Positions 39,001 through 42,000 of a stretch of 49,469 nucleotides of DNA are shown here, in pieces (the first letter of the stretch is position 1; every line of letters begins with the position of its first letter). This stretch comes from a virus (lineage: Duplodnaviria; Heunggongvirae; Uroviricota; Caudoviricetes), in IMG/VR virus record IMGVR_UViG_2698536620_000015; one strand, 5' to 3'. The position numbers are program-made.

Positions 39001-42000
39001 CAAAAACGGCGTATTAATCGCATCCAGAGAAACTAAAGGTGCCATTCCCGGTAGTTACAGTGCANNNNNNNNNNNNNNNNNNNNNCCCTGAGCATCCGTC
39101 GTGGACTGATTAAAAATCTCCTGACCATTGCGGCTCACTCTTAACCGGCAGGTCATGATACCGCCAGTGTTATTCCGCGGTGGTAAGCATGAGAATTTCA
39201 ACAGTAATAACCAACAGTCATACTGGTATTCAACCTGCCGGTTAAGAGTGAGCCGCAATGGTCAGGAGATTTTTAATCAGTCCACGACGGATGCTCAGGG
39301 CGTATTTTCCTCAGTTATAGATATGCCTGCCGGACAGGGGACGCTGACACTGACATTCACCGTATCTTCATCAGGAGCGAATAACTGGACACCAACAACC
39401 AGTATCAGCGATCTGCTGGTTGTGGTGATGAAAAAATCCACAGCAGGTATCAGTATCAGCTGAATTTTATAACCCAGAACGGGCGTCAGAAATGACGCCT
39501 TTTTTATTGCAGAAAAGCGAGAGGTAATTATGCGTAAAGTTTGTGCAGCAATTTTGTCCGCAGCCATTTGTCTGGCCGTATCCGGTGCGCCTGCATGGGC
39601 GTCTGAACATCAGTCCACGCTGAGCGCGGGGTATCTTCATGCCTCGACGAACGTCCCCGGCAGTGATGATCTGAACGGGATTAACGTGAAATACCGTTAT
39701 GAGTTTACGGACACACTGGGGATGGTGACGTCGTTCAGCTATGCAGGAGACAAGAATCGCCAGCTGACCCGTTACAGCGATACCCGCTGGTATGAAGATT
39801 CCGTGCGTAACCGCTGGTTCAGCGTGATGGCGGGGCCGTCTGTGCGCGTGAATGAATGGTTCAGCGCGTATGCGATGGCGGGTGTGGCTTACAGCCGTGT
39901 GTCGACTTTTTCCGGGGATTATATCCGCGTAACTGACAATAAGGGGAAAACGCACGATGTGCTGACCGGAAGTGATGACGGTCGCCACAGCAACACGTCT
40001 CTGGCGTGGGGAGCTGGCGTGCAGTTTAACCCGACCGAATCCGTGGCCATTGATATTGCTTATGAAGGCTCCGGCAGTGGCGACTGGCGCACTGACGGTT
40101 NNNNNNNNNNNNNNNNNNNNNGGCTGCAGGCAGAGATGCAGGGTGAGATTGTGGCACTGGTCCACAGCCACCCCGGTGGTCTGCCCTGGCTGAGTGAGGC
40201 CGACCGGCGGCTGCAGGTGCAGAGTGATTTGCCGTGGTGGCTGGTCTGCCGGGGGGCGATTCACAAGTTCCGCTGTGTGCCACATCTTACCGGGCGGCGC
40301 TTTGAGCACGGGGTGACGGACTGTTACACGCTGTTCCGGGATGCTTACCATCTGGCGGGGATTGAGATGCCGGATTTTCATCGCGGGGATGACTGGTGGC
40401 GTCACGGTCAGAATCTCTATCTGGATAATCTGGAGGCTACAGGGCTGTATCAGGTGCCGTTGTCAGCGGCGCAGCCGGGCGATGTGCTGCTGTGCTGTTT
40501 TGGTTCATCGGTGCCGAATCATGCCGCCATTTACTGTGGTGACGGCGAGCTGCTGCACCATATTCCTGAACAACTGAGCAAACGAGAGAGGTATACCGAC
40601 AAATGGCAGCGACGCACACACTCCCTCTGGCGTCACCGGGCATGGCACGCATCTGCCTTTACGGGGATTTGCAACGATTTGGCCGCCGCATCGACCTTCG
40701 TGTGAAAACGGGTGCCGAAGCCATCCGGGCGATGGCCACACAGCTCCCTGCGTTTCGTCAGAAGCTGAGCGACGGCTGGTATCAGGTGCGTATTGCCGGG
40801 CAGGATGTTAGCACGTCCGGATTAACGGCACAGTTACATGAGGCTCTGCCTGACGGCGCTGTGATTCATATTGTTCCCAGAGTCGCCGGGGCCAAGTCAG
40901 GTGGTGTATTCCAGATTGTCCTGGGAGCAGCCGCCATTGCCGGATCATTCTTTACCGCCGGAGCCACCCTTGCAGCATGGGGGGCTGCCATTGGTGCCGG
41001 TGGTATGACCGGCATTCTGTTTTCTCTCGGTGCCAGTATGGTGCTCGGCGGTGTGGCTCAGATGCTGGCACCGAAAGCCAGAACTCCCCGCACACAGACA
41101 ACGGATAACGGTAAGCAGAACACCTATTTCTCCTCACTGGATAACATGGTTGCCCAGGGCAATGTTATGCCTGTTCTGTATGGTGAAATGCGCGTGGGGT
41201 CACGTGTGGTATCTCAGGAGATCAGCACGGCAGACGAAGGGGACGGTGGTCAGGTTGTGGTGATTGGTCGCTGATGCAAAATGTTTTATGTGAAATCGCC
41301 TCCGGGCGGTTTTATCGTTTATGGAGCATGACGAATGGGTAAAGGCAGCAGTAAGGGGCATACCCCGCGCGAAGCGAAGGACAACCTGAAGTCCACGCAG
41401 CTGCTGAGTGTGATCGATGCCATCAGCGAAGGGCCGGTTGAAGGTCCGGTGGATGGATTAAAAAGCGTGCTGCTGAACAGTACGCCGGTGCTGGACAGTG
41501 AGGGGAATACCAACATCTCCGGCGTCACGGTGGTGTTCCGGGCAGGTGAGCAGGAGCAGTCACCGCCGGAGGGATTTGAATCCTCCGGCTCCGAGACGGT
41601 GCTGGGTACGGAAGTGAAATATGACACGCCGATCACCCGGACCATCACGTCGGCAAACATTGACCGACTGCGTTTTACCTTCGGTGTACAGGCACTGGTG
41701 GAAACCACCTCAAAGGGAGACAGGAATCCGTCTGAAGTTCGCCTGCTGGTTCAGATACAGCGTAACGGTGGCTGGGTGACGGAAAAAGACATCACCATTA
41801 AGGGCAAAACCACCTCGCAGTATCTGGCCTCGGTGGTGGTGGATAACCTGCCGCCGCGCCCGTTTAATATCCGGATGCGCAGGATGACGCCAGACAGCAC
41901 CACAGACCAGCTGCAGAACAAAACGCTCTGGTCGTCATACACCGAAATCATCGATGTGAAACAGTGCTACCCGAACACGGCACTGGTCGGCGTACAGGTG

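What the first reader, a model, noticed from the sequence alone, without database searches (positions are those of the whole stretch)
39087..39298. Perfect 67-bp inverted repeat flanking a 78-bp spacer at the 3' end of J, directly beside an N gap
Bases 39087-39153 are the exact reverse complement of 39232-39298. The right arm is in frame with the J C-terminus and the left arm reads the same peptide on the opposite strand. A perfect foldback of this size next to a gap is most likely a contig-end or chimeric-read artefact. A small invertible segment in the receptor-binding tip is the alternative, but no recombinase gene is nearby.
Basis: seen in the sequence. Interest (0 to 1): 0.45.

Follow-up and report, generated by a model that had tools for sequence, protein, structure and literature searches.

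The report
Contig-end foldback artefact in J gene
The perfect inverted repeat is real in the record, but it is almost certainly a sequencing or assembly foldback at the first base of a small, misplaced contig in a badly scaffolded prophage region, not a biological switch in the phage's receptor-binding protein.

Summary
The repeat exists. The arms are 39086-39153 and 39233-39300 (68 nt, 100% complementary), 79 nt apart.

The left arm starts at the very first base after the 21-N gap. It is the only inverted repeat of at least 30 nt in the window. Only 39086-39143 is extra sequence. From about 39144 the piece is ordinary 'B-type' lambda-J receptor-binding-domain sequence followed by lom.

The turn-round point is a natural 10-bp inverted repeat, ACCGGCAGGT/ACCTGCCGGT, with its halves 79 nt apart. 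That repeat is present in 112 of 113 IMG/VR contigs holding this J type. No record carries the long left arm: 0 of 2411 complete E. coli genomes, 0 of 92 phages, 0 of 113 IMG/VR contigs, and 0 hits for the junction in three collections.

The left arm puts three stops in the J frame. The J gene upstream of the gap has a different ('A-type') domain that overlaps the B-type piece in the Pfam profile (positions 1-84 against 33-135). The scaffold interleaves at least three paralogous lambdoid tail modules. No invertase was found.

Verdict: artefact.

The parts
35792..39064 (+). J (tail tip / host specificity) gene of tail module 'Y', with an 'A-type' C-terminal receptor-binding domain. It is cut off by the gap and lacks its last 141 nt.
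   Evidence: Pfam finds all J domains, with Ig_GpJ_C profile positions 1-84 of 135. It is 96.05% identical without gaps to the NZ_CP025950 J and 99.68% identical to the intact 1137-aa J of L008. Its last 195 nt are identical to 44546-44740 of the second J copy, so the contig ends inside a repeat.
39065..39085 (.). A 21-N scaffold gap.
   Evidence: N-run listing. A second 21-N gap at 40101-40121 closes the 1015-nt piece.
39086..39143 (+). The foldback-only segment. It is the exact reverse complement of 39243-39300 and is the artefactual part.
   Evidence: It starts at the first base of the contig piece. All 2411 E. coli genomes and 92 phages with this J type start matching only at 39141. At 39143 the window has A where native sequence has G. 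The J frame has three stop codons here.
39144..39153 (+). The left half of the natural 10-bp inverted repeat (ACCGGCAGGT). The strand switch happened within it.
   Evidence: It is present in native B-type J of L001, L003 and L012 and in 112 of 113 IMG/VR contigs, 79 nt from its partner. It pairs with its partner in the MFE and centroid ssDNA folds of the native sequence.
39154..39232 (+). The 79-nt spacer, which is ordinary B-type J coding sequence in native orientation.
   Evidence: It is colinear with L001 (97.6%), L003 (99.4%) and L012. It translates as part of Ig_GpJ_C.
39233..39300 (+). The right arm, which is native B-type J coding sequence. Its first 10 nt (ACCTGCCGGT) are the right half of the natural inverted repeat.
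39144..39463 (+). The genuine 3' end of a third, 'B-type' J gene, covering its receptor-binding domain from about profile position 33 to the stop codon.
   Evidence: Pfam Ig_GpJ_C 33-135 of 135, E = 1.1e-27. It is 97.6-99.4% identical to the J of complete genomes.
39530..40100 (+). The 5' 571 nt of lom, cut off by the second 21-N gap.
   Evidence: Pfam Ail_Lom 1-190 of 199, E = 2.4e-114. Its 3' part, 39723-40100, is 99.2% identical to the lom that follows the intact A-type J in L008, which may explain why the scaffolder placed the piece here.

Best explanation
The left arm is not part of the organism's genome. Bases 39086-40100 form a 1015-nt contig holding the 3' end of a 'B-type' lambda-J gene plus most of lom. 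It was scaffolded between two 21-N gaps into a region where contigs from at least three paralogous lambdoid prophage tail modules are interleaved.

The first 58 nt of this contig (39086-39143) are a foldback. They are the reverse complement of 39243-39300, joined to the true sequence inside a natural 10-bp inverted repeat (ACCGGCAGGT at 39144-39153, ACCTGCCGGT at 39233-39242).

The most likely origin is inferred, not shown. A minus-strand fragment ending at about 39144 snapped back on the 10-bp repeat, or paired with a sister fragment, during library preparation or amplification. A polymerase then extended it and made an inverted chimeric molecule. The assembler or gap-filler used those reads to extend a contig end that real reads could not extend unambiguously because of the paralogous J copies.

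Shown: the anatomy, the position at the contig edge, the natural 10-bp repeat, the absence elsewhere and the mis-scaffolded context. Inferred: the step at which the chimera arose.
For: 1. The arm begins at the first base after the gap, so its length is set by the contig end.
2. The arms match 68 of 68, while paralogous segments in the window are 77-98% identical.
3. The native sequence (L001, L003, L012) is colinear from 39141/39144 onward. The window has A at 39143 where native sequence has G, so the switch lies within the 10-bp natural repeat.
4. In 112 of 113 IMG/VR contigs with the native junction, the 10-nt halves lie exactly 79 nt apart, and none has an inverted repeat of at least 25 nt nearby.
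5. 0 of 2411 complete E. coli genomes and 0 of 92 phages cover the left arm in this orientation. The junction 50-mer and 25-mer are absent from the viral, genome and metagenome collections.
6. The native minus strand folds as ssDNA with this 10-bp stem in both the MFE and the centroid structure.
7. The left arm gives three in-frame stops.
8. J upstream of the gap covers Ig_GpJ_C profile positions 1-84 and the piece covers 33-135, so they are not two halves of one gene.
9. The scaffold interleaves modules. Pieces 30552-33294, 40122-43614, 43912-48243 and 48608-49469 are at least 99.6% identical and colinear with one reference prophage (L005). The pieces between them are 89-97% identical to L005 where they match it. 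Contig ends lie in sequence repeated elsewhere in the window.
10. Related loci found through the identical tape-measure protein show the same J either intact with an A-type end and no foldback (L008) or broken at almost the same point (L015, window-equivalent 39055).
11. Library-preparation chimeric reads that turn round at natural inverted repeats are documented (PMC10908179).
Against: - No reads are available, so the artefact is inferred from comparison, not observed.
- Only one of the 20 contig ends in the window shows a foldback, so it is not a systematic product of the assembler.
- A 10-bp repeat is shorter than any usual k-mer, so chimeric reads have to be postulated.
- In-vivo template switching at the same 10-bp repeat would give the same sequence.
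- A 68-bp inverted repeat with a 79-nt spacer would probably be tolerated in E. coli (established knowledge, not tested here).
Confidence: 0.9

Rival explanations
1. The foldback is a real in-vivo inverted duplication. Replication template switching, or snap-back repair of a break, occurred at the natural 10-bp inverted repeat inside a B-type J gene. It left a dead, truncated J remnant with a 68-bp inverted repeat.
For: The junction lies on a 10-bp microhomology, as in-vivo quasi-palindrome template switching would also produce. The stem forms in the predicted ssDNA fold. A real rearranged J/lom remnant exists in a complete genome (R18), so such debris does occur beside lom.
Against: The arm stops exactly at the contig end. 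The arms show zero divergence. The structure is absent from 2411 genomes, 92 phages and 113 viral contigs, and the junction is absent from three collections. The surrounding scaffold is demonstrably unreliable.
Confidence: 0.07
2. The structure is a small site-specific invertible segment in the receptor-binding tip of J. The 68-bp arms are recombination sites, and flipping the 79-nt spacer changes the receptor-binding domain.
For: The inverted spacer happens to stay open in the J frame. Invertible tail-fibre C-termini are known in Mu, P1 and e14 (established knowledge; the e14 layout was seen).
Against: - No PinE-like serine invertase is present (best tblastn E = 0.59).
- No recombinase appears among the listed Pfam families.
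- The arms hold no Din-type crossover core (the consensus was recalled from memory).
- An open frame over 26 codons is expected by chance about 29% of the time.
- The left arm carries three stops in the J frame, so no intact gene spans the element.
- Natural copies have only a 10-bp repeat, always in one orientation.
- The upstream J is a different allele.
Confidence: 0.01
3. The foldback is a pure assembler or graph artefact needing no chimeric molecule. For example, a gap-closing step could have extended the contig end with a mis-oriented mate or mis-overlapped reads across the short inverted repeat.
For: The scaffold shows other gap-edge oddities. A perfect 69-nt x 2.8 tandem array abuts the 1-N gap at 48607 and is absent from the reference that is 99.8-100% identical on both sides. 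Near-identical overlaps are left unmerged across gaps.
Against: A 10-13 nt overlap is far below usual k-mer or overlap thresholds. Only this one contig end is affected. This reading differs from the best explanation only in the step at which the error arose.
Confidence: 0.25

Closest known systems
Library-preparation chimeric ('inverted' or foldback) reads at natural inverted repeats, the PDSM model (Chen et al., BMC Genomics 2024, PMC10908179)
   Same: One part of the molecule is the original strand and the adjoining part is its reverse complement. The turn-round lies at a short natural inverted repeat. Here the turn-round is a 10-bp inverted repeat with a 79-nt spacer.
   Different: That work describes individual low-frequency reads in human capture libraries. 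Here the chimera has been fixed into a consensus contig end in a bacterial draft assembly. The reads themselves could not be inspected.
Din-family invertible segments of phage tail-fibre genes (Mu G/Gin, P1 C/Cin, e14 P/Pin)
   Same: An inverted repeat lies within the C-terminal, receptor-binding part of a phage host-range gene.
   Different: Those systems have an adjacent serine invertase gene, specific roughly 26-bp crossover sites, and a kb-sized segment carrying alternative C-terminal exons plus assembly genes (e14 layout). Here there is no invertase, no crossover core, a 79-nt spacer, a broken reading frame, and the repeat is found in this one record only.
Real J-lom rearrangement in E. 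coli R18 (NZ_CP186506.1)
   Same: A second, partial J receptor-binding-domain 3' end of the other type sits next to lom, downstream of a J gene.
   Different: In R18 the extra piece is a direct (tandem) lom'::J' fusion at an AGCGATGATC microhomology in a gap-free complete genome. It has no inverted repeat. The window has an inverted copy at a gap edge.

Membership tests
Contig-end foldback / inverted chimera artefact | The outer end of one arm coincides with a contig end or gap edge. | tested here: met
   The left arm starts at 39086, the first base after the N run 39065-39085.
Contig-end foldback / inverted chimera artefact | The arms are identical, because they are copied from the same template. 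| tested here: met
   68 of 68 positions are complementary.
Contig-end foldback / inverted chimera artefact | The strand switch occurs at a short pre-existing inverted repeat or microhomology. | tested here: met
   A natural 10-bp inverted repeat, ACCGGCAGGT/ACCTGCCGGT, lies 79 nt apart in 112 of 113 native copies. The window departs from native sequence at 39143.
Contig-end foldback / inverted chimera artefact | The structure is absent from independent assemblies of the same sequence. | tested here: met
   It is absent from 2411 E. coli genomes, 92 phages and 113 IMG/VR contigs. The junction has 0 hits in three collections, while the native junction has 113 hits.
Contig-end foldback / inverted chimera artefact | The junction is supported only by a minority of chimeric reads, and the native junction is at full depth. 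| not testable with these tools
   No reads are available and the source record was not identified.
Din-family (Gin/Cin/Pin/Hin) invertible segment | A serine invertase gene is adjacent to the segment. | tested here: not met
   tblastn of e14 PinE against the window gives a best E of 0.59 over 13 aa. The neighbouring genes are L, K, I, J, lom, stf and tfa. No recombinase appears among the 25 listed Pfam families of 37 ORFs; 8 families were not shown.
Din-family (Gin/Cin/Pin/Hin) invertible segment | Conserved crossover sites (core AAACCNNGGTTT, consensus recalled from memory) lie at the repeat ends. | tested here: not met
   There are only 2 one-mismatch matches in the window, at 13068 and 44204. 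That is no more than chance, and neither is near the arms.
Din-family (Gin/Cin/Pin/Hin) invertible segment | The segment carries alternative C-terminal exons, and an intact gene spans one repeat. | tested here: not met
   The spacer is 79 nt. The J frame has three stops in the left arm. The upstream J is another allele that overlaps in the Pfam profile.
Din-family (Gin/Cin/Pin/Hin) invertible segment | Both orientations are found among copies or within the population. | tested here: inconclusive
   All listed database matches are colinear with the native orientation. The population of the source isolate cannot be examined.
Hairpin telomere of a linear plasmid-prophage (N15 type) | A perfect palindrome with no spacer lies at a genome end, and a protelomerase gene is present. 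| tested here: not met
   A 79-nt unpaired spacer is present. The site is inside the J coding sequence. No protelomerase appears among the listed Pfam families.

The most novel reading that the evidence does not exclude
The foldback is a genuine, very recent in-vivo inverted duplication in a third prophage's J gene. Template switching at the conserved 10-bp inverted repeat in the receptor-binding domain produced it, which would mark that repeat as a natural fragile or rearrangement site in a widespread J allele.
Probability: 0.07. Interest if true: 0.25.

Novelty: not a real feature. Interest (0 to 1): 0.06.

Why it matters
The main value is as a warning. In this record the J / lom region cannot be used for host-range or receptor-binding inference. 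The apparent J gene is a composite of an A-type domain, a gap, a 58-nt foldback and a B-type domain from another prophage. Several neighbouring pieces belong to different prophages.

If the foldback were real, it would only be a small inactivating rearrangement. It would not be a new switching mechanism.

Tried and rejected
- **Invertible segment.** I looked for a serine invertase with e14 PinE, for recombinase families in 37 ORFs, and for a Din crossover core. All were negative. The inverted spacer is open in frame, but that is expected by chance about 29% of the time.
- **Systematic assembler artefact.** I tested all 20 contig ends for foldbacks, and only this one has it.
- **Finding the source record or a second occurrence.** The junction 50-mer and 25-mer were searched in the viral, genome and metagenome collections with no hits. 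An exact-protein look-up of the 111-aa ORF 39128-39463 found nothing on record. A look-up of the tape measure from the TTG start also failed, and the ATG start worked.
- **Hairpin telomere and diversity-generating retroelement.** Both were rejected on anatomy. The repeat has a 79-nt spacer and lies inside a coding sequence, and the arms are perfect and inverted rather than direct repeats with adenine mismatches.
- **One J gene with a small gap.** This is rejected because the two sides overlap in the Ig_GpJ_C profile (1-84 against 33-135) and are different alleles.
- **A misread of my own.** An early BLAST table seemed to align the A-type end to R18. It was a two-record FASTA file, and I corrected the reading.

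Full report
**Observation**

The window holds a perfect inverted repeat with arms 39086-39153 and 39233-39300 (68 nt, 100% complementary) and 79 nt between them. It is the only inverted repeat of at least 30 nt in the whole window, so chance is excluded.

39087-39153 is the reverse complement of 39233-39299, not of 39232-39298. The N run is 39065-39085. A test of all 20 contig ends shows that this foldback starts at the very first base of the piece 39086-40100, and that no other contig end has one.

**What the sequence on each side is**

Pfam identifies 35792-39064 as a lambda-type J (tip attachment / host specificity) gene with all its domains. Its C-terminal receptor-binding domain (Ig_GpJ_C) is covered only for profile positions 1-84 of 135 before the gap.

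The ORF 39128-39463, to the right of the gap, covers Ig_GpJ_C positions 33-135 and is followed by lom (39530-40100, Ail_Lom). The two sides therefore overlap by about 50 profile positions and cannot be two halves of one gene.

BLAST against complete genomes confirms that they are different alleles:
- Window 38001-39064 is 96.05% identical, without gaps, to the J of NZ_CP025950. I call this 'A-type'. It lacks the last 141 nt of that gene.
- Window 39141-39671 is 97.6% identical to the J end and lom start of E. coli R18, and 99.4% identical to NZ_CP150019. I call this 'B-type'.

**Which bases are extra**

Every one of the 2411 complete E. coli genomes and 92 phage records that hold the B-type end begins to match at query position 56, which is window 39141. 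None covers the left arm in this orientation.

Native sequence reads ...AAATTTGACCGGCAGGTCATGATACC. The window reads ...CTCTTAACCGGCAGGTCATGATACC. The window is therefore native from 39144 at the latest, and 39086-39143 (58 nt) is the reverse complement of 39243-39300.

The switch lies inside ACCGGCAGGT (39144-39153). Its complement ACCTGCCGGT is the first 10 nt of the right arm (39233-39242). This 10-bp inverted repeat is a normal feature of the B-type J gene. In 113 IMG/VR contigs that hold the native junction, 112 have the two halves exactly 79 nt apart, and none has an inverted repeat of at least 25 nt within -400/+500 nt.

The foldback junction, as a 50-mer and as a 25-mer, has no match in the viral, genome or metagenome collections.

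**Consequences for coding**

In the J frame the left arm reads P*ASVVD*LKIS*, which contains three stops. No intact gene spans the structure.

Flipping the 79-nt spacer would by chance stay open. The probability of that over 26 codons is about 0.29. The resulting peptide would replace a conserved part of the domain.

**Context: the scaffold is a mosaic**

A self-comparison shows large near-duplicates in series:
- 35486-38071 against 41029-43614, 95.5% (two J genes);
- 39425-40006 against 44843-45428, 94.5% (two lom genes);
- 29862-30327 against 33296-33761;
- 33800-34172 against 34186-34558, 98.4%, straddling an 11-N gap;
- 34765-34990 against 40122-40347.

Several contig ends lie in sequence repeated exactly elsewhere in the window. 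The J piece that ends at 39064 shares its last 195 nt with the second J copy at 44546-44740.

An exact-protein look-up of tail protein I (40603-41274) found a complete prophage, L005 (CP023645.1). Window pieces 30552-33294, 40122-43614, 43912-48243 and 48608-49469 are 99.6-100% identical to it and colinear with it. The pieces lying between them are only 89-97% identical to L005 where they match it at all. Two tape-measure fragments are also present. The scaffold thus interleaves module X (L005-like), module Y (15335-30327, 33296-34172, 34184-34990, 35272-39064) and the B-type piece Z (39086-40100).

Loci that carry the identical module-Y tape measure show what J looks like when assembled:
- In L008 the same J (99.68% identical) is intact at 1137 aa, with an A-type end followed by lom.
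- In L015 the contig breaks at almost the same place (window-equivalent 39055) before a 411-N gap.
- None of the eight loci holds the foldback junction.

The lom 3' part of piece Z (39723-40100) is 99.2% identical to the lom behind the A-type J of L008. This may be why a scaffolder put piece Z here.

**Mechanism**

Shown: a 58-nt reverse-complement extension at a contig end, joined at a natural 10-bp inverted repeat and unique to this record.

Inferred: a minus-strand fragment with its 3' end at about 39144 annealed through the 10-bp repeat to its own or a sister strand's 39233-39242 region. A polymerase extended it across 39243-39300. This gives exactly rc(39243-39300) followed by 39144-39300.

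The native minus strand is predicted to form this stem as ssDNA in both the MFE and the centroid structures (-21 kcal/mol, z = -2.1). Chimeric reads of this type, turning round at natural inverted repeats during fragmentation and end repair, are documented (PMC10908179).

Because the true continuation is ambiguous among paralogous J genes, a few such reads could extend the contig end. I cannot tell whether the error arose in molecules or in the assembly or gap-closing step. Another gap-edge oddity suggests the latter is possible: a perfect 69-nt x 2.8 array at 48415-48606 abuts the 1-N gap and is absent from the reference L005, which is 99.8-100% identical on both sides.

**Rivals**

A real in-vivo template-switch duplication would give the same sequence and cannot be formally excluded without reads. 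The coincidence with the contig end, the perfect arms, the uniqueness and the unreliable scaffold all make it unlikely (about 7%).

A site-specific invertible segment is contradicted on several counts (about 1%):
- no PinE-like invertase;
- no recombinase among the listed Pfam families, and only structural genes nearby;
- no Din crossover core near the arms (consensus recalled from memory);
- a broken frame;
- natural copies have only a 10-bp repeat.

Hairpin telomeres and diversity-generating retroelements do not fit the anatomy.

**Verdict**

Novelty: not a real feature. Interest is low (0.06).

The practical message is that the J / lom region of this scaffold is a composite of several prophages and should not be used for receptor-binding or host-range inference.

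Noticed in passing
L001 (E. coli R18, NZ_CP186506.1) 2158-2625: In a gap-free complete genome, an annotated 156-aa 'phage tail tip protein' is a fusion. The lom 5' end (signal peptide, about 130 nt) is joined to the last roughly 340 nt of an A-type J receptor-binding domain. The fusion sits between a B-type J and an intact lom, and the junction is at a shared AGCGATGATC. It looks like a real tandem duplication by illegitimate recombination.
   Followed up: partly
window 48415-48606 (next to the single N at 48607): A perfect 69-nt x 2.8 tandem array lies inside the stf tail-fibre gene and abuts a 1-N gap. The window diverges from L005 from about 48244. L005 has no such array, although it is 99.8-100% identical on both sides. 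It is probably another gap-edge artefact, or a piece of another prophage's stf.
   Followed up: partly
window 29862-34990, 35486-38071 and 40122-45428: The scaffold interleaves at least two collinear lambdoid tail modules. There are two tape-measure fragments, two M/L regions, two J genes and two lom genes. Near-identical overlaps are left unmerged across gaps, for example 33800-34172 against 34186-34558 at 98.4%, and a 390-nt exact repeat of 29862 at 33296.
   Followed up: yes
window 44952-45434: The second lom copy (module X) is open for only 160 aa against about 199 aa for Lom. No lom gene is called at the corresponding place in the reference L005 (14230-14882), so it is probably a pseudogene there too.
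   Followed up: no
L015 18722-19132; L008 18838-18968; L011 and L013: Several public draft assemblies that carry the identical tape-measure protein break in or just after the J receptor-binding domain / lom. L015 breaks within 9 nt of the window's break. This is a recurrent short-read assembly failure point caused by paralogous J / lom copies.
   Followed up: partly
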